Assembly: GCA_043819555.1 (NCBI GenBank)
Contig: JBDREQ010000039.1
Location: forward strand, 1,453-65,452
Length of the DNA stretch: 64,000 nt
From: Candidatus Zixiibacteriota bacterium
GTDB taxonomy: Bacteria > Zixibacteria > MSB-5A5 > GN15 > JAAZOE01
Direction: 5' to 3'
This document shows, piece after piece, positions 13,887-29,305 of the stretch. The position numbers were made by a program, and so were the translations under genes. The notes under the pieces are model-generated. The model had not been told where the DNA came from and did no database searches. It saw nothing but the letters and a program-made list of their open reading frames with translations. Within the stretch, counting starts at the first letter, position 1. Each line of letters begins with the position of its first letter.

Positions 13887-14006
13887 TTATGAAATTTAGT
13901 GCGGCATGCATTTTAGGGCAAGGATTAATAACAGAAAAGACAATGCCGGCATTTCGTTAAAGCTCAAAATGCCGACGTTATTTATTTTGAAACAGGTTTT
14001 AATATT

Positions 14007-14540
14007 CTATTCGCTGCCCGATACGGTAATGATTATTTTGGCGGAGTCGATCACGAATTCACCAGTCGTATGACCGGGACTAATCCCGTAATAATCAAAT
14101 TGACCTTTTTTGGCCAGCGCCTTCATCCGATCAACTCCGGTAATAATTGAAAGCGATTGCTTATATGATATCTTCGATACTCCCGGGGCTACGGTAAATT
14201 CATCAATAATTTTGGTCGCCGCCCCCGGTACAGAAGTCGGAGAAGACAATGGCCCGCTGTAATCATCGATATAGGCGTTAAAAGTAACGCTGCCGCCGGT
14301 AGTATTGGTAATAAAAAATTCAGCGCCAACGGCATCGATAAAATCAATATTGTCTTTGTGTTTCTGCCAGGTTGCATCGTCGGTGACATCTACTTGATAA
14401 AAGTAAAAGTCCTCGTGTGCGGTAAACTCAAAGGTTTCCACAACTATAAACGTTCCCGAGACAATGTCATAGCATCCGGGGGCAATGAAAAGGAAAAGGC
14501 CCAGGAGCGGCAGAAAATATTTACATAATTTCGTACGCAT
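14007..14540 (-). CDS. Hypothetical lipoprotein
   Basis: Lipobox-like IAPG-C after a hydrophobic signal. Confidence 0.65.
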   Translation of the reverse strand: MRTKLCKYFLPLLGLFLFIAPGCYDIVSGTFIVVETFEFTAHEDFYFYQVDVTDDATWQKHKDNIDFIDAVGAEFFITNTTGGSVTFNAYIDDYSGPLSSPTSVPGAATKIIDEFTVAPGVSKISYKQSLSIITGVDRMKALAKKGQFDYYGISPGHTTGEFVIDSAKIIITVSGSE

Positions 14541-14552
14541 TTTTTACTCCCC

Positions 14553-15104
14553 CTATTCGCCGGTTTTAAAGTAATAGTTTAGGCCTGCAGTGATATATAA
14601 AGCCTTTTTTGAACCATTCTCCTGCAGGGCAACATTGGCTTTTCCTCGAATATCGAGATCAAATTGGGGAGAAAACCCAAAGCCAAAACCAAGTCCGATC
14701 GACCAGCCAAGTTTACTTTCATCGAAACCGGTATCATCGTTCTTAATTGAATATATCGCGGCTCCGAGAACCCCATAAGGTTTGAAACCGATGACGCCCG
14801 GAGAATTACCAAAAGTGGCGTCAACTCCATAGGAATTAATTTTGGAACCATCAATACCCGGATTGAAACCATCAATCGGATCGGGCTCCCCCCATTTGCC
14901 AAATGTAATATTGGGTTCCGCTGTTATCAATGGCATTATTTTGATTCGAGCTTTGAGACCAAAAACCGTACCATTGCCCTGATCATCCATAACTGCGGGT
15001 AAAATCAGTCCGCCAAACCCCCCCACGCCAAATTTCGCATCCTGACCAAAACTAACAGATGCCAGAATAATCGATAGAACAACAATAGGAATCATTATTC
15101 TCAT
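14553..15104 (-). CDS. Outer-membrane beta-barrel domain protein
   Basis: Signal peptide, KPYGVLGA, GWSIGLG, C-terminal AGLNYYF; SD GAGGAGG. Confidence 0.75.
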   Translation of the reverse strand: MRIMIPIVVLSIILASVSFGQDAKFGVGGFGGLILPAVMDDQGNGTVFGLKARIKIMPLITAEPNITFGKWGEPDPIDGFNPGIDGSKINSYGVDATFGNSPGVIGFKPYGVLGAAIYSIKNDDTGFDESKLGWSIGLGFGFGFSPQFDLDIRGKANVALQENGSKKALYITAGLNYYFKTGE

Positions 15105-15342
15105 AGCGTACCTCCTCTGGGAACAAGTTAGATTTTGCCTGTAATCAATTGCTAAAGAAAATACGCCTTTTTAACCAAGATTTGCAAACCATTTTTGACT
15201 AATTATAACATTCTTCTACTGCCCTTGCCATTACGATTTGATTTATTCAGAAAATTAACAAATGCAGATTGAAACCATTTGCCATCTGGTGGGTTAATGT
15301 TATATTAGCAGCCTGAAACAAAGCCATGATAAGGATAATGTT

Positions 15343-15696
15343 ATGATGATTACAATTTGCCGGGCCAAAATACACAGGGCGACGGTAACCGACGCCAATC
15401 TGGATTATCAGGGCTCGATAACAATAGATAAAAATTTAATTGACGCCGCCGGATTATTTGTCTATGAAAAGGTGCAGGTCGTAAATATCAACAATGGCGA
15501 AAGGTTTGAGACCTATGTCATTGAGGGCAAACCTGGAAGCGGTGAGATTTGTTTGAACGGCGCCGCCGCGAGACTGGGATTACCGGGGGACAAAGTAATA
15601 ATTATATCCTATGCTCAATTACACACTGACGAAATGGCTGATTTTAGGCCAAATATCGTCAAGGTTGATGCTAACAATAAAATAGTAGAAGCATAA
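15343..15696 (+). CDS. panD: Aspartate 1-decarboxylase
   Basis: [16 protein letters not shown] (G-S autocleavage site), [15 protein letters not shown]. Confidence 0.96.
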
Positions 15697-15704
15697 ATTA
15701 TCTT

Positions 15705-16457
15705 ATGAAAAACGCCGCCATAATATTAGCTGCCGGAAAAGGCAAACGGATGAAATCCGACTTGCCGAAAGTCCTGCACAAAATCATGGGTCGTCCAATG
15801 ATTGAGCATCTCATCGACACTCTATTATCATTGAACATTGATAAAATCGTCGTTGTCGTCGGTCATATGGCTGATTTGGTCAAGGAAGAACTTTCAGAAT
15901 ATTCTAACAAAGTGGAATTCACTTTGCAATCTGAACAGCTTGGCACTGGCCACGCCGTTTTGGTGACCGAAAAGCATTTCCGTGATTATGAGGGAAATAT
16001 ATTAGTTGTGGCCGGGGATGTTCCATTCCTATCGGCTGAAACATTGAGCAATTTAATCGCCATTCATTCTGATGAAAAGGCCGCTGCGACGGTACTTTCG
16101 TCTTCCCCGCCGGACCCTGCCGGTTATGGGCGAGTCATACGAACCAAAGGGACAAATACCGTCGAATATATAGTCGAACATAAGGACGCAAATGACGACG
16201 AATTGAAAATCAGTGAAATTAACACCGGCACATTTTGTTTCGATAGCAAATATTTATTTGAGAGTTTGAAAGAAATTAGAGCCGACAATAGCCAAAATGA
16301 ATATTACCTGACCGATATTATGGGAATTATACGGCGCAAAGGACTCAAGGCGGCCGTGTATATGACCGATGAACCGGATGAGGCGTTGGGAGTCAATTCA
16401 GAGGAGCAAATGACCGATTTGGAGAATCGCTTTGGCGAAAAGGATCGAAATTTATAA
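15705..16457 (+). CDS. GlmU-like N-acetylglucosamine-1-phosphate uridylyltransferase (N-terminal domain only)
   Basis: ILAAGKGKRMKSDLPKVLH, QLGTGHAV, GYGRV, EINTG, EYYLTD; no hexapeptide acetyltransferase domain. Confidence 0.88.
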   Translation: MKNAAIILAAGKGKRMKSDLPKVLHKIMGRPMIEHLIDTLLSLNIDKIVVVVGHMADLVKEELSEYSNKVEFTLQSEQLGTGHAVLVTEKHFRDYEGNILVVAGDVPFLSAETLSNLIAIHSDEKAAATVLSSSPPDPAGYGRVIRTKGTNTVEYIVEHKDANDDELKISEINTGTFCFDSKYLFESLKEIRADNSQNEYYLTDIMGIIRRKGLKAAVYMTDEPDEALGVNSEEQMTDLENRFGEKDRNL

Positions 16458-16573
16458 TCTATTTTTGTGCCTTTGGCGTATAACAATTAGTAACAGATAG
16501 TTAAATAGCGTTTTATATTTGTTGACAAAGTGGTTTGATACTCTTTAATTTAGATCAAAGTTTGGAGAAAGAA

Positions 16574-17050
16574 ATGAAATCCTCGTCAATCGTATTCACT
16601 GTAATTTTTTTCATAATGGGATCTATCAGTTTCGGTCAGATGGTCGAAAAGGCTGAAGTCAGGGAATTAACGGAAAAATACGATATGGGTTTGGGAAAAC
16701 AGCCTTCGTTTTCATTATTGGATCTTTCCCGTTTGAATTTTGCGCATTCTTATTCTTTAAGCTTCTTTTCCGGTGGAGGGATATCCGGATCTCAGGGATT
16801 ATATCGGGGCGCTCTTACATATCAGCTTTCCAAGCCTTTGACGCTGACTCTCGGTTTAGGAATCTTTCATGATCCCGGTTCACTCATCAGCGGCGACAGA
16901 GGATCAAACAACAGCGCTATGTTTTTGCCCTCCGGTTATTTGGATTGGAAACCCTCAGATAATTTCAGGATGTCAATAGGATTTGAAACCGTCCCGGCAT
17001 ACCGCTACGGACAAAACAATTTAGGGAGGTATAGTTTTTGGCGGCACTAA
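16574..17050 (+). CDS. Hypothetical secreted/outer-membrane protein
   Basis: SD GGAG, signal peptide, beta-strand-like pattern. Confidence 0.6.
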   Translation: MKSSSIVFTVIFFIMGSISFGQMVEKAEVRELTEKYDMGLGKQPSFSLLDLSRLNFAHSYSLSFFSGGGISGSQGLYRGALTYQLSKPLTLTLGLGIFHDPGSLISGDRGSNNSAMFLPSGYLDWKPSDNFRMSIGFETVPAYRYGQNNLGRYSFWRH

Positions 17051-17106
17051 CGCATGGAAATTTAATTAACGGGCACGTAATTTATCCTACCTCTCAATAA
17101 AACCCC

Positions 17107-17628
17107 ATGACAGAAAAAACAAAAAAATCAAAGGGCGGTTCGGCATATCGCATTAAGCGAGCCAAAAACAAAAAGCCGATTCGGTTTTTAGAATTTAGTA
17201 TCATTTTCCTTTTAATCGTCGTCGGCGCCTACGCCGCTTCTTTTATAGTGCAGGTTTCCAATGGCTATTCGAAGGAAAATCCGCCAACTGAATACTATAT
17301 TAACTTGCAGGTTCTTAATGGTTGCGGCGAAAAAGGAATTGCTAATAAATTGGCCAATAAAATTGAGGCATCGGTTAAAAAACCTCTGGCGGTGCGGATA
17401 ATCGATACAGATAATTTTTACAATTTTGGCGTCGAAAAGACATTTATAATATCCCGAAAAAGCAATCTCAATGCGGCCACTTTGCTTGCAACACAGCTAA
17501 ATATTGATCCGGAAGTAACTTATCGGGAAATTGAAGATAATTATCTTGATATCGGGGCAACTCTGATTCTCGGAAACGACTACCGGGACATTTTTGAAAT
17601 TGGTGAAAAGAATCGTGAAACCAGATAA
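17107..17628 (+). CDS. LytR C-terminal domain membrane protein
   Basis: One TM, QVLNGCGEKGIA, TLILGNDY. Confidence 0.8.
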   Translation: MTEKTKKSKGGSAYRIKRAKNKKPIRFLEFSIIFLLIVVGAYAASFIVQVSNGYSKENPPTEYYINLQVLNGCGEKGIANKLANKIEASVKKPLAVRIIDTDNFYNFGVEKTFIISRKSNLNAATLLATQLNIDPEVTYREIEDNYLDIGATLILGNDYRDIFEIGEKNRETR

Positions 17629-17658
17629 TATTTTATTTGGAGGAGTTTATTAAATCCC

Positions 17659-18000
17659 TTGACATCTCTTAATCTCGCACGGGCAGCCGGAAAACTGGCG
17701 CTATCTAAAAAGGCTTTTGATGTAAAGATATTAAAGCTTAAAAAACTGTCTTCTGTATGCGATTATTTTGTAATCTGCTCCGGGACAGTTGACGTTCATG
17801 TTAAGGCCATCGCCAACGCGGTGGAGCGCGGCCTGCGCGATAAAGGTATTCGCGCTTCGTATCGGGAAGGAACCGAAGGCGCCAATTGGATATTGCTGGA
17901 TTACTTTGATGTTTTGGTGCATGTTTTCAAAGAGGATACGCGCCAATTCTATGCGCTGGAAAAATTATGGGGCGATGCTCCGGTCGAAACATTAGAATAA
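17659..18000 (+). CDS. rsfS: Ribosome silencing factor
   Basis: DYFVICSG, WILLDYFDVLVHVF, FYALEKLWGD; TTG start with SD GGAGG. Confidence 0.95.
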   Translation: MTSLNLARAAGKLALSKKAFDVKILKLKKLSSVCDYFVICSGTVDVHVKAIANAVERGLRDKGIRASYREGTEGANWILLDYFDVLVHVFKEDTRQFYALEKLWGDAPVETLE

Positions 18001-18046
18001 TAGAACTCCCGCCCACAAAACCGAATGAAAAATCAATTATAAACGG

Positions 18047-19306
18047 ATGGTAGCAATTATGGAAATTTCTGAACTAAAAACAAAAACAATTGCCGAACTT
18101 CTAAAAATCGCCGAGGATCTGGATATTCCCGGGGTTTCCGGATTGAGGAAATCGGAATTAATTTACAAAGTCCTTGAATCCCAATCGACCCAGGACGGGA
18201 TGATTTTCGCTGAAGGCGTCCTTGAAATCCTGGATGAAGGCTATGGGTTTCTCCGTTCGTCCGATTACAATTACCAGCCGGGACCGGATGACATTTACGT
18301 CTCGCCTTCTCAAATAAAGCGCTTTGATTTGCGCACCGGTGATACTTTGTCCGGCCAGGTGCGTCCTCCGAAAGAATCCGAGAGATATTTCGCATTACTG
18401 AAAATTGAAGCCATTAACACCGAGTCGCCGGAAGTCACCAAACATAAAACTCTCTTCGACAATCTGACTCCGCTCTACCCCGAGGAGCCGTTCAATATGG
18501 AAACCAGCTCCGAAGAGCTCACAACCCGCATCATCGATTTGATGTGTCCCATCGGAAAAGGTCAGCGAGGTCTGATTACTTCTCCTCCCAAAGCTGGTAA
18601 GACAATCATTTTGCAAAAGATAGCCAATGCCATTACGACTAATCATCCCGAAGTAAAATTGATCGTCCTGCTTATCGATGAACGCCCTGAAGAAGTAACC
18701 GATATGAAGCGTTCGGTTGACGGCGAAGTAGTTTCCTCGACATTTGACGAACCGGCCGACCGCCATGTCCAGGTTGCAAATATGGTTTTGGAAAAAGCCA
18801 AGCGTTTGGTTGAACATAAGAATCATGTAGTTATCCTGCTCGATTCGATTACGCGACTGGCACGTGCTCATAATGCCGTTGTACCTCATTCAGGAAAGAT
18901 TCTCTCAGGCGGCGTCGATTCCAATGCCCTCCATAAGCCGAAACGATTCTTTGGGGCGGCCCGAAATATTGAAGAAGGCGGCTCTCTGACGATTATCGCC
19001 ACAGCTTTGATTGAAACCGGCTCGAGGATGGACGAAGTTATCTTTGAGGAATTTAAAGGTACCGGTAACATGGAGATGGTCCTCGACCGACGCATATCTG
19101 ACCGGCGCATCTTCCCCGCGATGGATATAAATCGCAGCTCGACCCGAAAAGAAGAATTATTGCAGAGTGCGGAAATTCTCAATAAAGTATGGATCCTGCG
19201 CAAATTCCTGGCGGAGATGAATCCCATCGAGGCGGTGGAATTTTTGATTGACCGCATTAAGAAATCAAAAAATAATAAAAAATTCCTTGATTCAATGAAA
19301 AACTAA
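18047..19306 (+). CDS. rho: Transcription termination factor Rho
   Basis: [46 protein letters not shown]; true start may be 18059. Confidence 0.98.
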
Positions 19307-19346
19307 AGAATAATCAATAATTCCGTATAAAATTGAAAATCGCTCG

Positions 19347-19370
19347 CCGGAGGTTATTAAACTTCCGGTT
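19347..19370 (+). terminator. Hairpin after rho
   Basis: CCGGAGGTT/AACTTCCGG stem. Confidence 0.5.
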
Positions 19371-19427
19371 GTGCACTAAAGGTTCTTATTAATTCACTTA
19401 ACGGCTGACTGCGGGGTAATTGAAAAG

Positions 19428-20240
19428 ATGTTAAGAAAAATAATTTTATGGTCGATCGCGATTGCTATGACAATCGTCGCCGCCCTTTATCAAAAATACA
19501 CCGGACCAACTTATCCCATTGAGGATTCAACTACTTTAAATGACACCAAAATTCATTATGTTTTAAATCGCAGTCATGGCGGCGATGATGATCAGCGGAT
19601 AGCGATTGCGGCAGCGGATACATCAATATCGGGACAGTTACTCTATAAGCGATATAACACTGAGGATGATTTTATAATTCTGAATATGACGCGTGAGGGC
19701 GATAGTATGTCCGCCTCGCTTCCCCATCAGCCTCCGGCTGGAAAACTGGAATATTATATTCACCTCGTTAGCGGTGAAAATTCTGTAAATATTCCTGATG
19801 AAAGAACTGTCGTAACCCGATTCAAAGGAGCCGTTCCGGATATTGTGTTGGCGCCTCACATTATCTTGATATTTTTGGCGATGCTTTGGTCAACCCGCAC
19901 TGGTCTGGAAGCCCTCATGCCCAATGGCAAGACTTCGAGTCTGACTATCCAGACAGTTATTTTGTTATTACTGGGCGGGATGACTCTCGGTCCAATTGTC
20001 CAGAAATTCGCCTTTGGAGAATTCTGGACCGGCGTGCCTTATGGATGGGATTTGACCGATAACAAAACTCTGGTGGCTTTTGTTGGCTGGTTGGTGGCTC
20101 TTTGGCGCCATCGTTATTCCCAATTCCCGCGCTTCTGGATTCTGGCGGCAGCGATTATATTAGTTGCGGTTTTTACCATACCGCACAGTATGATGGGCTC
20201 AGAATTGGATTATTCAACCGGTGAAGTGGAAACCGGTTAA
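19428..20240 (+). CDS. Conserved hypothetical membrane protein
   Basis: TGPTYP, LPHQPPAGKLEY, WTGVPYGWDLTDNKTL, IPHSMMGSELDY; several TMs. Confidence 0.75.
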   Translation: MLRKIILWSIAIAMTIVAALYQKYTGPTYPIEDSTTLNDTKIHYVLNRSHGGDDDQRIAIAAADTSISGQLLYKRYNTEDDFIILNMTREGDSMSASLPHQPPAGKLEYYIHLVSGENSVNIPDERTVVTRFKGAVPDIVLAPHIILIFLAMLWSTRTGLEALMPNGKTSSLTIQTVILLLLGGMTLGPIVQKFAFGEFWTGVPYGWDLTDNKTLVAFVGWLVALWRHRYSQFPRFWILAAAIILVAVFTIPHSMMGSELDYSTGEVETG

Positions 20241-20254
20241 TCACGGAAAGAAAA

Positions 20255-20560
20255 TCAGCAGCAACTCTCGTTTGCGGCGTTGGAAGAGCAATCACACGAT
20301 GGTTTGGTACCTTTTAGAATGCCGTTTAATATACCTGCCGCGCATCCAACCCCGCTCCTGACGGAAATTGCCCCGGATTGACAATTCAACGCGCAGGCTC
20401 CGCATTCCATGCATAAATCACGGTACATTAATACCGCCCGCTTGTTTTCAATTCCGAAGACCGCATGAGGACAAACGGTGACACACATTTGACATCCTTC
20501 GCATTTGGATTTATCAAACTCCAGCGTCACAACTTCGGATAAGTATTTTAAAGCCTGCAT
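20255..20560 (-). CDS. hgcB: Mercury methylation ferredoxin HgcB
   Basis: Two CxxCxxCxxxC motifs including CMECGAC, GVGCA, C-terminal CC; directly after hgcA. Confidence 0.95.
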   Translation of the reverse strand: MQALKYLSEVVTLEFDKSKCEGCQMCVTVCPHAVFGIENKRAVLMYRDLCMECGACALNCQSGAISVRSGVGCAAGILNGILKGTKPSCDCSSNAANESCC

Positions 20561-20570
20561 TTTTTAAACC

Positions 20571-21710
20571 TCATAGGAACAATCCAACAATCCATAATAC
20601 GGTTCCCAATATACCAATCGTGATTTGGCACGGCACCGCATATTTCATTTCTTTTAATACCCCGGAAAGCGACGTATAAGTGGACGCCCCCGTAAAATTC
20701 ATTGCGATAAAACTCGAGATGGCGATTATAATAAATATCCAGGCAGCAGACATGAAATATCCCGGGGTAAATTGCGGATAAAAATTGAAAAACAAACTTA
20801 CCGAGGCAATAGTCAATAATCCTATCCAGATGCCCTTCACTGAAAACGAACGTCCCGGCAGTACCGGTAATAAAACAGGAGCCCCGACAATCGCGATTAA
20901 ATAGGCAAAAACGAACAATAGAACGTTTTGTACCCCGTTCGTTGCCAATCTATAGATAGAATATCCGTCGCTTCCCAAACCACTTAAGATAAACATGATC
21001 GCGAGTACTAATAGGAGCTTTTTCAAATAGCCGGCAATTTCCATAGGTATTAGGGTAATCCGCTCGCCAATTTTAAAAGTAACTCGCCGCATTTCAGGGG
21101 TTGCTTTCATGCGATTCTCTAAAAATCGTCTAATATCTGCCGAGAAAACAGGTCCGAAAACAACCCGAAAACCGCTCATCTCTTTAACCCGAAAAGCGCT
21201 GACTCCGGTCGCCCCCAATTGTGGTACGATTATTCTGCGGTGCGAAACAACCTGTTCAAGACCGGAAGTTTTTATCCGGATAACTAACTCATTAGTACCA
21301 AACGTACCTTTTCCCGCCGCGCACCAGACATTGATACCCTTCGTATCTAAAACCAGGCCCCATCCGTCCAAACCGTCAAGGTCAGATCGGAGGTAATCAA
21401 AACTCATTTTGTAATTGGCCGAGACAAATACCGGTGATTTATCCGTCGGCTCTCCAATGGCGTACAATCCCGGAGTGACAATATGCGTTGTCCGGCCTAT
21501 TCCCCAGCGGCGTTTCCAATTTCCGATTTTGTCAGACAAGGTTAAGACCGTGCTAACCTTTGGAATTTTCCCAATTGGCGTGGAAATATGTTTATCAATC
21601 CATGGTTTATTATCCGCAATTAACTCAAATGCAGTATCTGGATTTTTTTGGCTTTCAGGCTGGCTGCAACACTGCCCGTTATTTTGTGAAAGCTCACTCA
21701 CGATGCTCAC
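20571..21710 (-). CDS. hgcA: Mercury methylation corrinoid protein HgcA
   Basis: Cap-helix GINVWCAAGKG, ANYKMSFD, PQLGATGV, C-terminal TMs, MNFTGASTYTSLSGV. Confidence 0.97.
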   Translation of the reverse strand: MSIVSELSQNNGQCCSQPESQKNPDTAFELIADNKPWIDKHISTPIGKIPKVSTVLTLSDKIGNWKRRWGIGRTTHIVTPGLYAIGEPTDKSPVFVSANYKMSFDYLRSDLDGLDGWGLVLDTKGINVWCAAGKGTFGTNELVIRIKTSGLEQVVSHRRIIVPQLGATGVSAFRVKEMSGFRVVFGPVFSADIRRFLENRMKATPEMRRVTFKIGERITLIPMEIAGYLKKLLLVLAIMFILSGLGSDGYSIYRLATNGVQNVLLFVFAYLIAIVGAPVLLPVLPGRSFSVKGIWIGLLTIASVSLFFNFYPQFTPGYFMSAAWIFIIIAISSFIAMNFTGASTYTSLSGVLKEMKYAVPCQITIGILGTVLWIVGLFL

Positions 21711-21715
21711 CTCTA

Positions 21716-22411
21716 TTAAAAAATCAACAAATAAAATCCTGCGATTAGCAAAATACAGCCTGCCGTATAGCGGATAATTTTAGCCGCCCGTTCAGATCTA
21801 AAAATAGCGGCTTTGCCATAAGAGAGCCCGGTTAAGACGGCGGCGGCTGGAAAGGAATAGCCTATCGCAAAGAAAGTCAAAATAATTATTCCCCATAGAG
21901 TGTGCCCCCTGAGAACCGCCAGACCAATCGCACCCGCCAGGGCAGGATTGCAGCCGATAGTACAAGCTGACGTTCCTCCCCCTACGACAAGACCAAAAAA
22001 GGCAGCACCCTTGATTGATTCGGGAACCGTCGGCTTATAATTTGTTACTATTCCCGGAATTTTCCAGGGTATTAAATCAAGAGAAACCGCTCCCAAAAAG
22101 ATTATTATCAATCCGGCCAATGTCTTCCAGTATATCCCCAGAGCACTCCCGGCTATTTGACTGATAAATCCTGCCGCCGCTCCAAGCAATCCCAATGACA
22201 GCATTGTCCCGATCATAAAAAACAATCCCGTAATGGCAATCGTTTTCTTGTCTATCTTTTCCTGTGATCCGCTGTATCCGGCGATAGCCCCCAAAACTGG
22301 TAATGTGCAGCATGAGCTGACCGAAGCCGCCAAACCCAGAACCAGGGAAGCCGGCAATATAATCCAGCCGTATTCGGGATTATCCAATATTTGCCGTAAT
22401 GTGTCAATCAT
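21716..22411 (-). CDS. CcdA/DsbD-family transmembrane thiol-disulfide electron transporter
   Basis: About 6 TMs; SCCTLP in TM1 and CTIGCNP in TM4. Confidence 0.75.
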   Translation of the reverse strand: MIDTLRQILDNPEYGWIILPASLVLGLAASVSSCCTLPVLGAIAGYSGSQEKIDKKTIAITGLFFMIGTMLSLGLLGAAAGFISQIAGSALGIYWKTLAGLIIIFLGAVSLDLIPWKIPGIVTNYKPTVPESIKGAAFFGLVVGGGTSACTIGCNPALAGAIGLAVLRGHTLWGIIILTFFAIGYSFPAAAVLTGLSYGKAAIFRSERAAKIIRYTAGCILLIAGFYLLIF

Positions 22412-22420
22412 ATTGAGTTC

Positions 22421-23032
22421 CTATGTACCGCAATTATTCGGATCACAGGTTGCCGGATCGCATCCACCCGATAAATATGCTTTCATGAGAATTGTTTCGG
22501 ATAGCTCACCAGTCAATATCGCCGGAGCCTTACCCTTTTTGGCTACGACTACCGCCGGTAGATTCGGAATATTAAGATTGTCAACCGCGGAAGAAAACAA
22601 TTCTTCGCCGGGCGCGGTTTTGGCGATTATAATATCTGCTCCGGATTTCCGAATCGATTCGGTAACATCCTCGACCATCCGTGATATTTCGGGATTTTTT
22701 TCCAAAGCCGAGCCTGCTCCTTCAAGAATAAGAAATAAAAAATCCGAATCGACCAGTAAATCATCGGTGAAAAATGAAGTTGTTTCAACCTGGCCAGGGT
22801 CAACACTCGCATTGGCGATTTCCCTTTCCTGATATCCAAGTGAGTAAATGGCTAATGCGATCGCCGTTAGCATGATAATCGAAAATATGATATTTTTTGC
22901 CTTTCGCCCCATTAATGATTGCCTGCCGCTATCAGTTGTACAACAACCAGTCGGTCCGCAATCGCAGGAATCAGCATTCAAATTATTCAATCGCTTGTTA
23001 TTATCGTTGCTCTCGAGATTATTGTCACCCAT
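22421..23032 (-). CDS. Cys-rich membrane-anchored hypothetical protein, possibly thioredoxin-like
   Basis: N-terminal CDCGPTGCC, one TM, C-terminal GGCDPATCDPNNCGT. Confidence 0.65.
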   Translation of the reverse strand: MGDNNLESNDNNKRLNNLNADSCDCGPTGCCTTDSGRQSLMGRKAKNIIFSIIMLTAIALAIYSLGYQEREIANASVDPGQVETTSFFTDDLLVDSDFLFLILEGAGSALEKNPEISRMVEDVTESIRKSGADIIIAKTAPGEELFSSAVDNLNIPNLPAVVVAKKGKAPAILTGELSETILMKAYLSGGCDPATCDPNNCGT

Positions 23033-23054
23033 TGCAATTACCTTTCCTATTCAA

Positions 23055-23414
23055 TTATCCTGAAAGATCAAAAACGTCATTCAGCTTCCCGCTGCAACAG
23101 CTTTTAAAAAACTGAGCCAGCTCAGTTATTACCTCTTCAGAAATCCAACACCTGGTTTTTTGCCCCACTTTTTCAAGTTGAATTAGCCCGGATTGATTGA
23201 GTTCTTTTATATGATGTGAAATTGTAGAAGGCGCAAGGTTCAGCTGGCTACCCAGGCGGCCGATACAATTCTGATCATCATCGCCCAATTCGCATTTTTC
23301 ATCAATGCTGCAACAGGAAACCAAAGTCAGAAACAACTGAAACCGGTTTGAATTCGATAGTGCCTTAAAAATCCTAACATATCCCTTATTATCTATAATT
23401 CGATTGTTCGACAT
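23055..23414 (-). CDS. arsR: ArsR/SmtB-family metalloregulator
   Basis: FKALSNSNR, LNLAPSTISHHIKEL...GLI; multiple Cys including two CC pairs. Confidence 0.9.
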   Translation of the reverse strand: MSNNRIIDNKGYVRIFKALSNSNRFQLFLTLVSCCSIDEKCELGDDDQNCIGRLGSQLNLAPSTISHHIKELNQSGLIQLEKVGQKTRCWISEEVITELAQFFKSCCSGKLNDVFDLSG

Positions 23415-23422
23415 ATGTCGAA
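23407..23422. promoter_or_regulatory. Putative ArsR operator (perfect 16-bp palindrome)
   Basis: TTCGACATATGTCGAA overlaps the arsR start codon and the predicted transcription start. Confidence 0.7.
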
Positions 23423-23449
23423 ATATACATATTCTGCTCCCGATGTCAA
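23422..23449 (-). promoter_or_regulatory. sigma70 promoter of arsR-hgcAB operon
   Basis: TTGACA (23449-23444), 16-nt spacer, TATATT (23427-23422). Confidence 0.7.
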
Positions 23450-23521
23450 TTAGATTTTTTGGAATAACCAGGATTCCTTAAAATCTCTTTCCTGAAGCGA
23501 TTGAAATATATAAATTAGGTC

Positions 23522-25846
23522 ATGGCATCATCAGGTCAGCATCCAAAACTGCGTTCGGATCTTGTCGTATCCGAACAGGAAACTGGCGGGCAAACGCTAT
23601 TCATACTGAAAGACCCGATTACTTTTCGATATTTTCGGGTACGCGCGCCTGAGTTTTATCTAATCAACCAGTTTGACGGGAAAACTGATAATGCGAGTAT
23701 CTCAAAACGGATGTTGGACAAGTTTGATTTACAAATCTCAACCGAAGCTATCGAACAATTCGCCAATAAGGTCGAGGCTCTTTATTTTTTCGAAGGTTCT
23801 CGGTCGGAATATGAAATATCATCGGGGCGATATAAACCTCAGGCAAAAAAGAGCCTTTTTTCAAATTTACTATTTGTAAAACTCAAGGCGTTTAATCCTG
23901 AAGGGATATTAAACGCCATATACCCTGCCGTAAAATTTCTATTTAATCCTGTCGCGGTTACGGCCATGATTCTACTAACTTTTTCCGGATTCTTAATTTA
24001 CTCTGCCAATTTTTATGAATTTCGCTTTAATCCCACAGCCATTTTTTCTTTGGGATCGCTCGTGACCATTTTCATTGTTCTGGCATTTATACTACTGCTC
24101 CACGAATTTGCGCACGCCTTAACCTGTCGGCATTACGGCGGACACGTGAGGGAAATGGGCTTTCTGCTTTTATATTTTCAGGTTTGTTTTTACGCAAACC
24201 TATCCGATTCGTGGCTTTTCAAGAAAAAATCGCATCGTCTGGCGGTTCTTTGGGCAGGACTGTTTTTTCAAATGGTTATGTTTTCCGCTGTTGTTTTTGG
24301 ATGGCGTGTTACCGTTATCGGGACCGGAATAAATCATTTTTTCTGGCTGGCGGCTAATATCAATCTTCTGGTAATCCTGATCAATTTTAATCCTTTGATT
24401 AAGCTTGACGGTTATTATCTCTTATCCGAAATTATCAATATCCCCAACCTGCGTGACCGGTCATTTCAATACTTAAGACAAGGATTCAAGAAATTCATCG
24501 GAATCGATTTATCATATAGAAATCCACCAAAACGCCAGGCGCGGATAATGCTTTTTTATGTCATTTTCGCTTCTTTTTACTCTCTACTCTTAATTCTGTA
24601 TGTCGGTCGAGCCGCATATCGGTTCCTGGTCGAAAACCTCGCCGGTAGCGGTTTTTTATTGTTTTTAGTGTTGCTGATTATTATTTTTCAAAAACCGGTC
24701 AGGCAATTTATAAGATTCGTAACTAAAAGAGAGGTCTTGAAGGCGATGGCATTCAAACCAAGAAATATAGTGATATTCACTAGCGTTCTTATTGTAGCGA
24801 TTGTCTTCCTGTTTATAATCCCCTTCCAGAGTCAGGTGGGAGCCGGGATAACCATTCAGCCCAAAGCGGAATTTCGAATTGTTCATCAATCTGCCCAGGG
24901 GCGTCTGGATTTATATCTGAGGGAAAGCGGCACAGAGCGAATATTTGGTACCGAACATATTCAATTATCATCCGGGGATTTAGCCGTATTGAGGCTTGTA
25001 CCTTTGGTCAAAGAAGGCGATATTGTAAAAAAAGGCGATACTTTGGCAACGATAATCTCCAGTCAGGTGTTGGGTAACCTTGATGCCGCTCGCGCTGAGC
25101 TTGACCGTTTGCAAAATGAAATAGCTCTGATACAATCGCCTCCCAAACCTGAAGAAATCACCTCGGCGCAGGCGGCGGTCAATGCGGCTAAAGCTAACGT
25201 TGAGCAAATGCAAAACGATGTCGATAGAAACAGGTCTTTATTTGAGAAAAATCTAATCGCTCGACAGGAAATTGAACAATCTGAATCATACCTGATTGTA
25301 GCCCAGTCGAATTTAAAAGAAGCTCAGGCAAAACTGGAATTAATCAAGGCGCCTCCAAAAAAAGAGGAAATCGACATCCTCAAATCGAAGATATCAACCC
25401 AAAATGCCTCAATACGTTATCTCGCCACTCAGGAGGCCGCCCAGGCAATTGTTACTCCCATTGATGGAGTTATCGTCGCGCAGTATCGCGATGAATTGTT
25501 GTTCAAAGTGGCCGATATGTCTCAAGCGGAAATCACCATGCCAATTGCCGATAACTTCCTCAAAATGATCCGGACCGATGCTGATGTTTCGGTTAAGGTT
25601 CGCAGTTTCCCCTCGCAGCTTTTCAACGGCCAGGTCATACAAATTTCCAATTCGGGAGATTTAGCTTTCTCCACCGACGACAGGTCGCGTTTCCCCGTTT
25701 ACGCTTTACTCGATAACCCCGATGGAGTTCTCCAGGACGGAATGAGCGGGTACGCAAAAATCTCCTGCGGTAAATCGTCTCTCTTCAATATTTTGTCAAA
25801 TCGCATAAAATCCAACCTGCGGGTAGAATTCTGGTCCTGGTGGTAA
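23522..25846 (+). CDS. RRE(PqqD-like) / M50 site-2 protease / HlyD-like adaptor fusion protein
   Basis: N-terminal PKLRSDL..ILKDP...YF...EFYLINQFDGK (RRE-like); HEFAH and NFNPLIKLDGYY (M50 zinc ligands); multiple TMs; VKEGDIVKKGD, coiled coil, TPIDG, GMSG.AKI (membrane fusion protein). Confidence 0.85.
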   Translation: MASSGQHPKLRSDLVVSEQETGGQTLFILKDPITFRYFRVRAPEFYLINQFDGKTDNASISKRMLDKFDLQISTEAIEQFANKVEALYFFEGSRSEYEISSGRYKPQAKKSLFSNLLFVKLKAFNPEGILNAIYPAVKFLFNPVAVTAMILLTFSGFLIYSANFYEFRFNPTAIFSLGSLVTIFIVLAFILLLHEFAHALTCRHYGGHVREMGFLLLYFQVCFYANLSDSWLFKKKSHRLAVLWAGLFFQMVMFSAVVFGWRVTVIGTGINHFFWLAANINLLVILINFNPLIKLDGYYLLSEIINIPNLRDRSFQYLRQGFKKFIGIDLSYRNPPKRQARIMLFYVIFASFYSLLLILYVGRAAYRFLVENLAGSGFLLFLVLLIIIFQKPVRQFIRFVTKREVLKAMAFKPRNIVIFTSVLIVAIVFLFIIPFQSQVGAGITIQPKAEFRIVHQSAQGRLDLYLRESGTERIFGTEHIQLSSGDLAVLRLVPLVKEGDIVKKGDTLATIISSQVLGNLDAARAELDRLQNEIALIQSPPKPEEITSAQAAVNAAKANVEQMQNDVDRNRSLFEKNLIARQEIEQSESYLIVAQSNLKEAQAKLELIKAPPKKEEIDILKSKISTQNASIRYLATQEAAQAIVTPIDGVIVAQYRDELLFKVADMSQAEITMPIADNFLKMIRTDADVSVKVRSFPSQLFNGQVIQISNSGDLAFSTDDRSRFPVYALLDNPDGVLQDGMSGYAKISCGKSSLFNILSNRIKSNLRVEFWSWW

Positions 25847-26115
25847 CTTTTTTTATTCCCCTTAATTAATTGTCTAATAATAAGTTGCGTGATTTTGTGT
25901 GATTCTTCGCATTAAATAATTGTCCCAGGCACTTGACAGAGAAGAAATATAATACTTGATTTGCATGCTGAATAGCAGTTTTCAGCACACAGGGATGTGA
26001 AATTGTTACACGGATTGTAACTTCGGTGCTTCATCCCAAAGACAGATAAGAGGAAACCACTCAGCATTATGCTGATGGCACTATATCGGACTCAAATACA
26101 TAGGAGGTGAACCCG

Positions 26116-26187
26116 ATGATCTACGAACTCGAAATCGAAGTTCTAGAAGAGAAGATTGCTCCTGGAATGAGCATGGGTGGTCAGTAG
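26116..26187 (+). CDS. 23-aa small peptide MIYELEIEVLEEKIAPGMSMGGQ, putative RiPP-like precursor
   Basis: AGGAGGTGA SD at 26102-26110, 5 nt before ATG; LExLEExIAP leader-like motif; downstream hairpins; next to the RRE-M50 gene. Below the ORF-track cutoff. Confidence 0.8.
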   Translation: MIYELEIEVLEEKIAPGMSMGGQ

Positions 26188-26264
26188 AATTGAAACCGCG
26201 AAGGAATTAACCCTCGCGAATTTCAATTCTGTCAAGTCAGGGGCCGCCATTGGCGGCCCCTTTC
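26186..26264 (+). terminator. Two hairpins 3' of the peptide ORF; the second is a likely terminator
   Basis: AGAATTGAAA...TTTCAATTCT (26186-26230) and AGGGGCCGCCA-T-TGGCGGCCCCT-TT (26239-26263), the latter overlapping the kinase stop codon. Confidence 0.6.
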
Positions 26265-29200
26265 CTATTGCCTAATACAACTTTTAAAGACTTTAACCGT
26301 CCCAAAAGCTTAATAATTCTCTTATCGGTATAGTATTTCTGTAGTTTTTCAGAATCAACTATTTTTTCTGATATTTTTTTAAGTACTTCAAGTGCATTTT
26401 GGGAATGAACAAACGAATCTTCGAATTCTTTAAGTTCAAATGTAATTTCGGATAATAAGCACGATGCCTGCCATTGTTCGGGAAGCATTCCGTTTTTTTG
26501 CGCAATCTTTAAAGCCTTGTTCAAAGACAACTTAGCGATGTCGAGTTTTCTTTCGCTGAATTCACACATGGCCAGATCTATATGGTATCTCGGCAAATCA
26601 ATATCTTCATCAATCGTGCCAAAATATAGTCTGGCATTATTCATAAATTTCTCAATATTTTTAAATTCATGGTTTTCAATTTCTTTTTCCAGCCGAGCCA
26701 AACCAATCACTGAAAACTCGCGTTGTGTATTCAATTTGGATTGTAGCTCTTCCGCCGCCCGGATATGTTTTTGATCTCCTGAAATATTAAAGTTATGAAT
26801 GTGTATGAAAAATTGGGCCAGTTTATCATCAATATCGACCGCCATTTCTTTGGCTTTCCTTAAATAATCTTCGGCCCTGTCAAAAACGTTTAAATCTTTA
26901 TATAATTTTGCAAGTTCCAAATAACAGGGCAAAATTGAAGCGCTGTGTTCCAGTTGCAATGCGGAAGATAAGGCATTTCGGATTTGAAATTCCGCTTCTG
27001 AGTAGACACCCATACGGCGAAGTATTTGCCCGGTCAGGCGTGACAGGGTAACTTTATGCGCTTCATCGTTCAAAATATCCGCGATCGCTTTTCCTTCCTG
27101 CAGGAATTTTAGGGCTCCACTTAACCTGCCAGCTAAGAGGCTTGCTTCCACAAGGTTTTCGTAATTAAGGAGTTGTTCTACTTTGATACCCATTTCTAAA
27201 TTAAGGTTAAGCGATTTCTCAAAAGCGCCAATGGCTGCAGATGCCTTCCCCATCATAAAATAGGTGAAACCCAGATTATTCCAGGTGCGGGCAATTTCCC
27301 CTTTATCACCCAGTTTTTTTTTGATTTCCAGGGCTTCGGAAAGATGTTTTACTCCATTCTCATATTCTCCACGCACAACATAAATGGAACCGATATTGTT
27401 CAGGCTTGATGCGATTTCACGTTGAGATTTTAGTTGTCTTTGCAATTCCAGGGCTTGAATATAATGTTCAAGGGCTTTATCCATTTTTCCGGCAACCCAG
27501 TACATATTGCCGAGATTATTGAGAGTCTGTGAAAGCCCCAATGGATCATCCAAACGCTCATACAATATCCTGGCTTGATTTAAAACCCGTATCCCCGAAG
27601 AGTAATCCGATTTGTCCTTATATAGGTCACCCAAAATTTTATAAGATTGGGCCGCAAGCAAATCATTTTCACCATTTTGGGAAAGTTCCACGACCCTGAC
27701 AAAAGAATGTTCGGCGAATTCAAGATACCCGGCCTCTTTTTCAACATTGGCTCGCCGAAACATCAATCTGGCCTGCTGGGAAATATCTTTCAGGCTTTTT
27801 GCAGCCTTTAGAGCCAGTTCAAGATACTCAAGCGATTTTTTCTGACTGACCGGAGTCTTATCAATGGCTGTGAGTAAAGATTCGATAGCCTTTTTGTAAT
27901 CTCCGGCCTGATAAAGTAAGTTTCCTCTTAATACCGCGAATGAATCAGAATTATCAAATATTTTTTCGATTTTCTTTGAAATAGTCCTGCGCGTTGATAA
28001 TTTCAACCTTCGGTTCAGGGAAGTGAGCAAAATCCGACGGCGTGAATCTGGAATATCAAACCACCACCTGAGGGCTGTTTTGGAATCAGAACAGATTATC
28101 TGAGCTATATCTTCGACTTTTTCCTCTACATCAGCCACTGCCAGGGCAAGGGCCAATTTGTTAAGCGAAAGCGAAGAGTTGTGCAATGGCCGCAATGCGA
28201 ATCGGGTCAATCGTTCAGGCCATTCAATACAATCAATTGATTGGTTTTGCCATCCCCAGTGGCCGTCCAGACGAGCAAACCGGCAATTATCAAAATTGTG
28301 TTCCAGAATTATTCTGACCCCAGCCGGATCAAAAAGCAGATCCTTTTCAATAAAATGCAATTGTTCAATTGAGAAACTGTGTTTTCCAAAAATCTCATAC
28401 AGCTTATTATCATTAAGCGCATCCAAGCCGTAAATAAGATGTCGAGGCCGAATTGCTTTCCTGAAGGGATATATGGAGCCCGCTTTGGCCAATTTTTCCA
28501 GTAATTCAAAAGCCGATGATGGCCTTTTTTCCGGATTTATTTCCAATAATGAGGATATTAAATCTTTTGTATTTTGCGAGAATTCACGAGCCAGCCCGGT
28601 TAGTCCTGGCCTTTCCCCTTCGGTTATCTGAGCGTTAATCTCAAGCGGATCGTTTTTTTCAGATTGAAATGGCAATGAACCCGAAGCCAGGTAGTAAGCC
28701 ATAACTCCAAAGGAAAACAAATCCGATCGCGGCGTTATTTTCTGGCCCATAACCACTTCTGGAGCCATGTATCCGACAGTTCCTGAGGTTTTGGGATTGG
28801 TTGCAATCCGGTGATCAGACGCCAGAGAAAAATCAGAAAGCTTTACATAAAATAATCGATTCAGCGCAAAATTAACATCCTCAAAACCCGGGGGACAGAA
28901 TACATTTGAGGGTTTTATATCATTGTGACAATAACCGGCGCTATGCAAAACATAAAGCGATGCCGCCGCCGCCGATAAAATCGCAAGGAGTTTATCTTCG
29001 GACAATTTCCCCGCGTAATTTTCAAGTATTTGCCCTTCACAAAATTCGATAGTAATAAATTTTCGGCTGGTGGAGGCAATTCCAATATCAAAGCACTTGA
29101 CAATACCGGGAAAATGAATTTTCTGAGAAATTAATTTTTCGGTTTCTATAAGCTGATCGTTTATATTTTCGAAAAAGCATTTTATTGCTATTGGTCTGGA

Positions 29201-29305
29201 AATATTTAGATGATGGGCCAAAAACACTTCGGCCGTGCCGCCCTCACCGATTTTTTTTATTACTTTATAATCCTCAGGGAAAGTTCTAATCACCGAACGC
29301 CTCAT
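26237..29305 (-). CDS. Hanks-type Ser/Thr protein kinase with C-terminal TPR array
   Basis: IGEGGTAEV, AIK, HNDIKPSN, DFS, GTVGYMAPE, SDLFSFG; TPRs such as SQTLNNLGNMYW, ASSLNNIGSIY, ARTWNNLGFTY. Confidence 0.9.
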   Translation of the reverse strand: MRRSVIRTFPEDYKVIKKIGEGGTAEVFLAHHLNISRPIAIKCFFENINDQLIETEKLISQKIHFPGIVKCFDIGIASTSRKFITIEFCEGQILENYAGKLSEDKLLAILSAAAASLYVLHSAGYCHNDIKPSNVFCPPGFEDVNFALNRLFYVKLSDFSLASDHRIATNPKTSGTVGYMAPEVVMGQKITPRSDLFSFGVMAYYLASGSLPFQSEKNDPLEINAQITEGERPGLTGLAREFSQNTKDLISSLLEINPEKRPSSAFELLEKLAKAGSIYPFRKAIRPRHLIYGLDALNDNKLYEIFGKHSFSIEQLHFIEKDLLFDPAGVRIILEHNFDNCRFARLDGHWGWQNQSIDCIEWPERLTRFALRPLHNSSLSLNKLALALAVADVEEKVEDIAQIICSDSKTALRWWFDIPDSRRRILLTSLNRRLKLSTRRTISKKIEKIFDNSDSFAVLRGNLLYQAGDYKKAIESLLTAIDKTPVSQKKSLEYLELALKAAKSLKDISQQARLMFRRANVEKEAGYLEFAEHSFVRVVELSQNGENDLLAAQSYKILGDLYKDKSDYSSGIRVLNQARILYERLDDPLGLSQTLNNLGNMYWVAGKMDKALEHYIQALELQRQLKSQREIASSLNNIGSIYVVRGEYENGVKHLSEALEIKKKLGDKGEIARTWNNLGFTYFMMGKASAAIGAFEKSLNLNLEMGIKVEQLLNYENLVEASLLAGRLSGALKFLQEGKAIADILNDEAHKVTLSRLTGQILRRMGVYSEAEFQIRNALSSALQLEHSASILPCYLELAKLYKDLNVFDRAEDYLRKAKEMAVDIDDKLAQFFIHIHNFNISGDQKHIRAAEELQSKLNTQREFSVIGLARLEKEIENHEFKNIEKFMNNARLYFGTIDEDIDLPRYHIDLAMCEFSERKLDIAKLSLNKALKIAQKNGMLPEQWQASCLLSEITFELKEFEDSFVHSQNALEVLKKISEKIVDSEKLQKYYTDKRIIKLLGRLKSLKVVLGNRKGAANGGP

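What the first reader, a model, noticed from the sequence alone, without database searches (positions are those of the whole stretch)
20255..23449. ArsR-led hgcAB mercury methylation operon in a probable Zixibacteria-like genome
Seen: arsR, Cys-rich membrane protein, CcdA-like gene, hgcA and hgcB, co-oriented with gaps of 5-22 nt. The NVWCAAGK and CMECGAC motifs are intact. Known: hgcAB is the required gene pair for methylmercury production, and arsR-linked hgcAB occurs in other methylators. Inference: this organism is a potential Hg methylator under metal(loid) control, in a poorly studied lineage.
Basis: partly seen in the sequence, partly recalled or inferred. Interest (0 to 1): 0.7.

Follow-up and report, generated by a model that had tools for sequence, protein, structure and literature searches.

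The report
Mercury methylase behind arsenic-type accessory module
This Zixibacteria genome carries intact mercury-methylation genes (hgcAB) behind a metal-sensor gene and two cysteine-rich membrane genes that in other bacteria sit in front of the arsenic-methylating gene arsM instead, which suggests, untested, that the operon is an arsenic-type detoxification unit whose methylating enzyme has been swapped.

Summary
Observation confirmed: five co-oriented genes; HgcA and HgcB pass NCBIfam cut-offs; markers point to Zixibacteria; 13-kb synteny with a same-genus genome argues against chimerism. The headline is not new: hgcA in Zixibacteria and ArsR-linked hgcAB are published, and 48 of 285 genomes of the phylum have hgcA.

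What the tools add: the three front genes are a module for which I found no description. It has a distinct ArsR clade with a conserved palindrome over its own start codon, a membrane-anchored thioredoxin-fold protein lacking CxxC (X), and an ArsG/CcdA-related membrane protein (D). The module is followed by hgcAB or by arsM (12 and 19 of 38 metagenome loci), with at least four swaps on D's tree. Across the phylum arsM is depleted in hgcA genomes (8/48 versus 154/237) while acr3 is not (41/48 versus 164/237).

Best reading: an autoregulated, likely arsenic-responsive cassette with HgcAB in ArsM's slot, making methylmercury when Hg is present. Against: ND132 made no methylarsenicals, the family-level sign test is not significant, no expression data. 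This scan noted the arsM-slot idea before in Bacteroidales, without this module.

The parts
23422..23449 (-). Sigma-70-type promoter TTGACA-16-TATATT, 7 nt before the arsR ATG; no Shine-Dalgarno-like site, so a predicted leaderless transcript
   Evidence: Best site of the scan, 11 of 12; sequence; TTGAC at similar spacing in most related loci
23407..23422 (.). Perfect 16-bp palindrome (TTCGA-N6-TCGAA core) across the -10 end and the arsR start codon; predicted operator, with a further half-site 9 nt downstream
   Evidence: single exact copy in the genome; at a fixed distance in 25 of 36 loci of this ArsR clade (22 with at most 1 mismatch) versus 0 of 44 other ArsR at 1 mismatch
23055..23414 (-). 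ArsR/SmtB-family repressor of a distinct clade; invariant Cys35, near-invariant Cys50 and Cys89, N-terminus MSN fixed by the palindrome
   Evidence: clade scores 130-181 bits versus at most 52 for full-length others; all 13 strong copies in the phylum lie upstream of hgcA
22421..23032 (-). Protein X: Cys cluster (23, 25, 30, 31), one transmembrane helix (48-66), thioredoxin-fold domain without CxxC, Cys tail (191, 196, 201)
   Evidence: No Pfam or NCBIfam hit; model pLDDT 71 matches thioredoxins, best Z 11.1, rmsd 2.3, 87 aligned; hydropathy; not alignable to ArsF, probability 1.9%
21716..22411 (-). Protein D: six-helix DsbD/CcdA-superfamily membrane protein with Cys34/Cys35 and Cys150/Cys154; distant homologue of the organoarsenical permease ArsG
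   Evidence: PF02683; Cys35 invariant and Cys154 in at least 90% of 20 rows; hhalign to ArsG 98.5%, E 2.7e-15; family members score 30-48 bits on NF040495, cut-off 200
20571..21710 (-). hgcA: corrinoid protein with cap helix NVWCAAGK, five transmembrane helices and an N-terminal CC pair (cysteine form of the CU motif)
   Evidence: NF040863 424 > 275; CU/CC motif described in passages of bioRxiv 10.1101/2022.07.06.499078
20255..20560 (-). hgcB: two 4Fe-4S motifs, Cys73 and terminal Cys100-Cys101
   Evidence: NF040864 118.6 > 99; sequence; needed residues listed in PMC11588087 passages

Best explanation
This is an intact arsR-X-D-hgcA-hgcB gene cluster of a Zixibacteria genome in which hgcAB occupies the position that arsM holds behind the same three genes in other bacteria, and it likely works as a self-repressed, arsenic-responsive methylation cassette that is predicted to make methylmercury when Hg(II) reaches it. 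Steps. (1) Shown: gene order, motifs, conserved palindrome, partner swap, purifying selection. (2) Inferred, about 85%: one leaderless transcript starts at the arsR ATG and the ArsR dimer represses it by binding the palindrome over the start site. (3) Inferred, about 60%: As(III) or a methylarsenical binding Cys35/Cys50/Cys89 releases the repressor. (4) From established biochemistry, about 85% given expression and cobalamin: SAM methylates Cob(I)-HgcA, HgcB supplies electrons and its terminal cysteines hand over Hg(II), giving methylmercury. (5) Inferred, about 35%, my preferred role for the middle genes: D moves a thiol-bound metal(loid), most likely the methylated product, across the membrane by its two cysteine pairs, as its relative ArsG is reported to export organoarsenicals, and X's cysteine clusters on either side of the membrane load or unload it.
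For: Family cut-offs met. Same order and flanks in a same-genus genome, 81% DNA identity over 13 kb, dN/dS 0.07-0.20 for all five genes. The site is empty in 3 family genomes and holds hgcAB alone in 2. D family in the phylum: 21 strong loci, 17 directly before hgcA, 3 before arsM, 1 in an acr3-arsC-permease operon. Metagenome loci found through D alone: of 38 with 600 bp or more downstream, 19 carry arsM, 12 hgcA, 7 neither; 6 of 6 arsM tested pass NF008823. At least 4 hgc/arsM changes on D's tree. The same ArsR clade and palindrome head 17 hgc and 5 arsM loci. True arsG directly precedes hgcA in 3 genomes. arsM in 8 of 48 hgcA genomes versus 154 of 237 others, Fisher p 6e-10, family-stratified p 3e-8; control acr3 41 of 48 versus 164 of 237; among acr3 genomes arsM 7 of 41 versus 129 of 164. 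This genome has acr3, an ArsC-like gene and metK but no arsM. In ND132 an ArsR upstream of hgcAB responds to arsenic and SAH (abstract); SAM is the HgcAB methyl donor (PMC11588087).
Against: ND132, which has hgcAB and no ArsM, gave no mono- or dimethylarsenicals, and its hgcAB deletion was as As(III)-resistant as wild type. Counting families as units the arsM depletion is 9 to 3, p 0.15; kin are not independent. Eight genomes have both genes and L026 has both in one operon. Only 17 of 49 phylum hgcA loci examined have D and 12 have the full R-X-D, so the module is not needed for hgcAB. The palindrome is not found elsewhere in the genome (1 exact copy, 1 other at 2 mismatches), so acr3 and arsC seem outside this regulon. 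The best solved relative of the repressor is an arsenic sensor (6j0e) but only 1-2 bits above zinc sensors. Three D loci lie before an NrfD-type gene without X. A preprint proposes halomethane dehalogenation as the metabolic role of HgcAB (abstract).
Confidence: 0.55

Rival explanations
1. Same operon and arsenic-type control, but X and D form a CcdA-like electron relay that keeps cysteines of the methyltransferase or of envelope proteins reduced, with no transport of metal(loid).
For: D is in the DsbD_TM family and keeps a cysteine in helix 1 and helix 4 as CcdA does (CcdA layout recalled). X has a thioredoxin fold and is fused to a SelW/Rdx-like domain in L120 and L164. Public sources label D cytochrome c biogenesis protein CcdA.
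Against: X has no CxxC in its thioredoxin domain. ArsM and HgcB are cytoplasmic, so a transmembrane relay has no obvious client. D carries extra vicinal cysteines, more like a metal site.
Confidence: 0.25
2. hgcAB merely landed behind a metal-stress promoter; R-X-D is a general thiol or heavy-metal stress module, the link has no functional meaning, and hgcA and arsM exclude each other because of habitat or lineage.
For: 32 of 49 phylum hgcA loci lack D; hgcAB alone occupies the same site in two family members; family-level sign test p 0.15; no methylarsenicals in ND132.
Against: D is followed by a metal(loid) methyltransferase in 31 of 38 informative metagenome loci and 20 of 21 phylum loci; X-D lies after hgcB in L014 and L057 and between hgcA and hgcB in L219, so the link survives rearrangement; acr3 is not depleted in hgcA genomes.
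Confidence: 0.15
3. The operon's selected job is unrelated to arsenic or mercury, for example halomethane dehalogenation or one-carbon metabolism by HgcAB, with the ArsR sensing redox state or SAH.
For: Preprint 10.64898/2026.04.26.720869 reports CCl4 dechlorination by HgcAB (abstract only); ND132's ArsR also responds to SAH; the genome has an MttB-family gene beside a corrinoid protein.
Against: Does not explain why the same repressor clade, palindrome and X-D head arsM operons beside acr3 and arsC.
Confidence: 0.05

Closest known systems
HgcA/HgcB mercury methylation pair (NCBIfam NF040863/NF040864; Pseudodesulfovibrio mercurii ND132)
   Same: Both models passed; cap-helix cysteine, five helices, two 4Fe-4S motifs, Cys73 and terminal CC present.
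   Different: N-terminal CC instead of the CU selenocysteine motif although the genome has selA and tRNA-Sec; second HgcB motif ends CQ; activity untested.
ArsR2-hgcAB operon of ND132 (bioRxiv 10.1101/2022.10.17.512643; abstract and results parts 1-2 of 5 read)
   Same: Cysteine-rich ArsR-like gene upstream of hgcAB with cysteines in the loop after helix 2 and in the wing strand; host lacks arsM.
   Different: Two membrane genes lie between arsR and hgcA here; a conserved palindrome is identified here; whether the two repressors are one clade could not be tested (ND132 sequence not obtained).
hgcAB among ars genes (PMC7438021 Fig. 6 legend and passages; PMC10349881 passages)
   Same: Co-location of hgcAB with arsR, acr3, arsC and arsM is published.
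   Different: The passages searched do not mention DsbD/CcdA-like or thioredoxin-fold accessory genes, a swap with arsM, or exclusion between hgcA and arsM.
ArsE-ArsF-ArsG organoarsenical resistance system (NF040495 for ArsG; primary paper not read, cited in PMC9144182)
   Same: D is homologous to ArsG (98.5%) and follows a membrane-anchored thioredoxin-fold protein as ArsG follows ArsF; true arsEFG precedes hgcA in three genomes.
   Different: D is far below the ArsG cut-off and forms a separate clade; X lacks ArsF's CxxC and does not align to it; no ArsE gene here.
Zixibacteria as putative Hg methylators (PMC12484752, abstract and passages)
   Same: hgcAB plus an MttB-family methyltransferase and no MetH/AcsE-type pterin domain other than folP.
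   Different: That paper has no occurrence of arsR or synteny in its main text; operon structure and regulation are not described there.

Membership tests
HgcA (NF040863) | Score above the curated cut-off and above the HgcAB-like fusion model | tested here: met
   424 > 275; 196 < 285 on NF043039
HgcA (NF040863) | Cap helix N(V/I)WCA(A/G)GK and more than four transmembrane helices | tested here: met
   NVWCAAGK at Cys130; 5 hydrophobic segments by Kyte-Doolittle; criteria from PMC10349881 passage
HgcB (NF040864) | Adjacent to hgcA; two CxxCxxCxxxC motifs; Cys73; terminal CC | tested here: met
   118.6 > 99; C20-C30, C50-C60 (ending CQ, not CP), C73, C100-C101
HgcAB mercury methylase | Methylmercury formation | not testable with these tools
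   Needs culture or complementation
ArsR/SmtB family | Winged HTH_5 domain | tested here: met
   PF01022 27.2 > 22; NF033788 46 < 55 for this protein, 65 > 55 for clade member L147
As(III)-sensing ArsR | Three-cysteine As(III) site and release by arsenite | tested here: inconclusive
   Three conserved cysteines; Cys35 aligns with a cysteine of 6j0e, but scores do not separate arsenic from zinc sensors; binding untested
ND132 ArsR2 clade | Homology with the four-cysteine ArsR2 | not tested
   Sequence not obtained; only the paper's description read
ArsG (NF040495) | Score above 200 bits; SPCP and FCP motifs | tested here: not met
   No hit for the window's D at E 0.01; family members 30-48 bits; motifs differ
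DsbD/CcdA transmembrane superfamily | PF02683 over cut-off, six helices, cysteines in helices 1 and 4 | tested here: met
   39.4 > 27.1
DsbD/CcdA transmembrane superfamily | Structural match to solved CcdA | tested here: inconclusive
   Model pLDDT 68; CcdA 5vkv at Z 4.8, rmsd 4.8, 173 aligned, among unrelated rows
ArsF / redox-active thioredoxin | CxxC in the thioredoxin fold | tested here: not met
   No cysteine in residues 32-190 of X; hhalign to ArsF-like proteins 1.9%
Zixibacteria | Marker proteins closest to the phylum | tested here: met
   RpoB 71% versus 62% and 58%; Rho; labels of nearest homologues. Only five genomes compared; no phylogenomic tree

The most novel reading that the evidence does not exclude
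HgcAB is a cobalamin-dependent stand-in for ArsM: R-X-D is a dedicated support module for metal(loid) methyltransferases, in which D exports the methylated product (methylarsenite, and methylmercury in hgcAB hosts), and Zixibacteria keep either arsM or hgcAB because one does the job. D would be a first candidate methylmercury exporter encoded with hgcAB, and arsenic the native substrate of HgcAB.
Probability: 0.15. Interest if true: 0.88.

Novelty: new variant of a known kind. Interest (0 to 1): 0.5.

Why it matters
Why microbes keep hgcAB, what switches it on and how methylmercury leaves the cell are open questions. This locus supplies a repressor with a defined palindrome that can be tested in vitro, two candidate accessory proteins shared only with another metal(loid) methyltransferase, and a phylum-wide either-or pattern between hgcA and arsM. 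If arsenic induces this operon, arsenic-rich sediments and aquifers would be predicted to raise methylmercury output from a lineage in which about one genome in six carries hgcA. The mere presence of hgcAB in Zixibacteria is already published and is of modest interest.

Tried and rejected
Chimerism: rejected by synteny, GC in line with neighbours and shared flanks. HgcAB-like fusion family: rejected. Selenocysteine N-terminus: not present; none of 46 phylum loci scored showed CU, 30 showed CC, 3 more lacked a scorable motif. X as ArsF and D as ArsG: rejected as members. Complex prediction X with D: no verdict, score 0.01. Fold search for D: nothing at Z 8 or above; no solved relative by sequence. 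Atlas search for X gave unnamed clusters, and ArsD and thioredoxin as leads only; the Atlas search for D did not complete. Sequencing runs: no RNA holder listed; the one DNA run covered only scraps. Terminator scan: one site, below chance. Rfam: none in 14000-30000. MerB search in the genome rang nowhere, controls included. HgcA tree by FastTree only: the window's HgcA sits with its same-genus relative and has no supported wider placement, so no transfer claim is made; the D tree is the quick tree, the careful search did not finish, and the direction of the swaps is unknown. A search for the Corynebacterium ArsR operator found nothing useful. The mangrove paper PMC10689504 was not held; that it reports Zixibacteria methylators is recalled, not checked. 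No palindrome upstream of hgcA in the two family members lacking R-X-D.
Full report
Observation. HgcA scores 424 bits on NF040863 (cut-off 275) and HgcB 118.6 on NF040864 (cut-off 99); the HgcAB-like fusion model is not reached. HgcA has five hydrophobic helices and an N-terminal CC pair; HgcB has both cluster motifs (the second ends CQ), Cys73 and the terminal CC, the residues listed as needed in PMC11588087 (passages). Each gene is single-copy in the genome, which is 97% complete.

Host and assembly. RpoB is 71% identical to two genomes titled Zixiibacteriota against 62% and 58% for Latescibacterota and KSB1, Rho agrees, and the nearest homologues of D and ArsR carry the Zixibacteria label. 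A same-genus genome aligns over 13 kb at 81% with the same order, and dN/dS is 0.07-0.20 for all five genes. Among the 14 genomes of the family, the site beside the M50-HlyD gene holds the full operon in 3, hgcAB alone in 2, is empty in 3, and is different or cut off in the other 6. The operon is real, under selection and not chimeric.

What is already known. hgcA passes the cut-off in 48 of 285 genomes of the phylum. Zixibacteria are named as putative methylators in PMC12484752 (abstract and passages). ArsR-led hgcAB and hgcAB among ars genes are described in the ND132 preprint (abstract and results parts 1-2), PMC7438021 and PMC10349881 (passages).

Regulation. A TTGACA-16-TATATT site ends 7 nt before the arsR ATG, with no ribosome site, whereas the four later genes have purine-rich sites; I infer a leaderless transcript. 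A perfect 16-bp palindrome covers the -10 end and the start codon and occurs once in the genome. The repressor belongs to a clear clade (130-181 bits against at most 52). Of 41 rows scoring 60 or more, 5 lacked the anchor motif and were not counted; 25 of the other 36 have TTCGA-N6-TCGAA within 2 mismatches at exactly the same distance, 22 within 1 mismatch, against 0 of 44 other ArsR genes at 1 mismatch; 3 of the 11 misses are cut by contig ends and the rest look degenerate by eye. All 13 strong copies in the phylum lie upstream of hgcA. Cys35 is invariant, Cys50 and Cys89 nearly so. The ligand is not determined by sequence.

The middle genes. X has a cysteine cluster, one membrane helix, a thioredoxin fold without CxxC and a cysteine tail. 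D is a six-helix DsbD/CcdA-superfamily protein with cysteine pairs in helices 1 and 4, homologous to ArsG (hhalign 98.5%) but far below its cut-off. In the phylum the D profile gives 21 strong loci (260 bits or more, one split by a frameshift) and then nothing above 105 bits; 17 lie directly before hgcA, 3 before arsM and 1 after acr3-arsC-permease. The profile was built from hgc-linked copies, which biases towards hgcA. A metagenome scan with D alone returned 64 loci, 59 strong; of the 38 with at least 600 bp downstream, 19 have arsM, 12 hgcA and 7 neither. Two of the 38 are duplicates of another and two repeat phylum loci; one of the 7 is followed by what looks like the start of an arsM and three by an NrfD-type gene. 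Six of six arsM proteins tested pass NF008823. On D's tree (83 rows, quick method) the partner changes at least 4 times between hgcAB and arsM. D also accompanies hgcAB in 9 of 80 loci from Bacteroidota, Chloroflexota, Planctomycetota and Lentisphaerota, after hgcB in two of them. True arsE-arsF-arsG precedes hgcA in three Zixibacteria. But 32 of the 49 phylum hgcA loci examined lack D.

hgcA versus arsM. Prompted by an earlier scan note (e1-9991213), I tested exclusion across the phylum. arsM is in 8 of 48 hgcA genomes and 154 of 237 others (Fisher p 6e-10; stratified by family p 3e-8, odds ratio 0.11). The control acr3 is in 41 of 48 and 164 of 237, so hgcA genomes are neither less complete nor poorer in arsenic genes; among acr3 genomes arsM is in 7 of 41 against 129 of 164. 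With families as units the result is 9 to 3, p 0.15, and kin are not independent. This genome has acr3 and an ArsC-like gene on other contigs, metK, an MttB-family gene beside a corrinoid protein, selenocysteine genes and a heme-copper oxidase subunit, but no arsM.

Mechanism. Most likely the repressor blocks its own leaderless promoter until a thiophilic metalloid, probably arsenic, binds its cysteines; the transcript then yields X, D and HgcAB; HgcAB uses SAM (PMC11588087) and would methylate Hg(II). I favour transport of the thiol-bound methylated product for D, by analogy with ArsG (named an organoarsenical efflux transporter in a passage of PMC9144182), over an electron relay, at about 35% to 25%. 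That HgcAB itself methylates arsenic is the boldest reading and has direct evidence against it: ND132 has no ArsM, gave no mono- or dimethylarsenicals, and its deletion mutant was more sensitive to As(V) but not As(III); 20-30% of the arsenic was unaccounted for there.

Novelty. Searches for Zixibacteria with hgcA or methylators, hgcA with ArsR, hgcA-hgcB with cytochrome c biogenesis (0 papers), hgcAB with DsbD, CcdA or ArsD (30 of 105 listed) and hgcA with arsM (PMC10083202 passages) showed no description of this module or of the exclusion. The library lacks most subscription papers, and supplements of the ND132 preprint (Table S4) could bear on this and were not seen. Earlier scan notes contain the arsM-slot idea for other loci but no match to D's sequence. 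Verdict: a real hgcAB operon, a new variant of a known kind, interest 0.5, carried by the accessory module, the operator and the hgcA/arsM pattern rather than by the lineage.

Noticed in passing
L152, L153, L155 (upstream of hgcA): In three genomes of one Zixibacteria family hgcA directly follows arsG; in L152 and L155 thioredoxin-like arsE and arsF genes precede it.
   Followed up: partly
L120:5075-6073, L164:5223-6158: Protein X is fused to an N-terminal SelT/SelW/SelH-like domain (below cut-off); the ORFs may start after an in-frame TGA, not checked.
   Followed up: no
L198:1949-2779, L207:1935-2774, L057:6833-7528, L215:8130-8294: An MtrA-like corrinoid protein (NF002126 170 > 161 for L198) lies in or beside these arsenic operons, a second cobalamin protein in arsenic context.
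   Followed up: no
L015:982-1716 and L189, L194, L198, L207, L209, L214, L215: An unnamed lipoprotein-like protein with a cysteine tail sits between D and either hgcA or arsM; no NCBIfam hit.
   Followed up: no
L121 and L122 (G038): One genome has two full hgcAB operons with R-X-D, one with D split by a frameshift, and also arsM.
   Followed up: no
L219: X and a divergent D lie between hgcA and hgcB.
   Followed up: no
window 23522-25846 (+): 774-aa fusion of an M50/HExxH-like membrane domain with an HlyD-type adaptor, divergent from arsR and present in 14 of 14 family genomes; below all NCBIfam cut-offs.
   Followed up: partly
G000:C15:11563-14327: MttB-family methyltransferase beside a B12-binding protein, matching the methyl-supply proposal of PMC12484752.
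   Followed up: partly
L205, L206, L211: A long-branch subgroup of D lies before an NrfD-type gene without X or ArsR, possibly a respiratory role.
   Followed up: no
window 26237-29305 (-): 1022-aa protein that reads as a kinase domain followed by TPR-like repeats, overlapping a GAF histidine-kinase-like gene; no NCBIfam hit at 1e-45.
   Followed up: no
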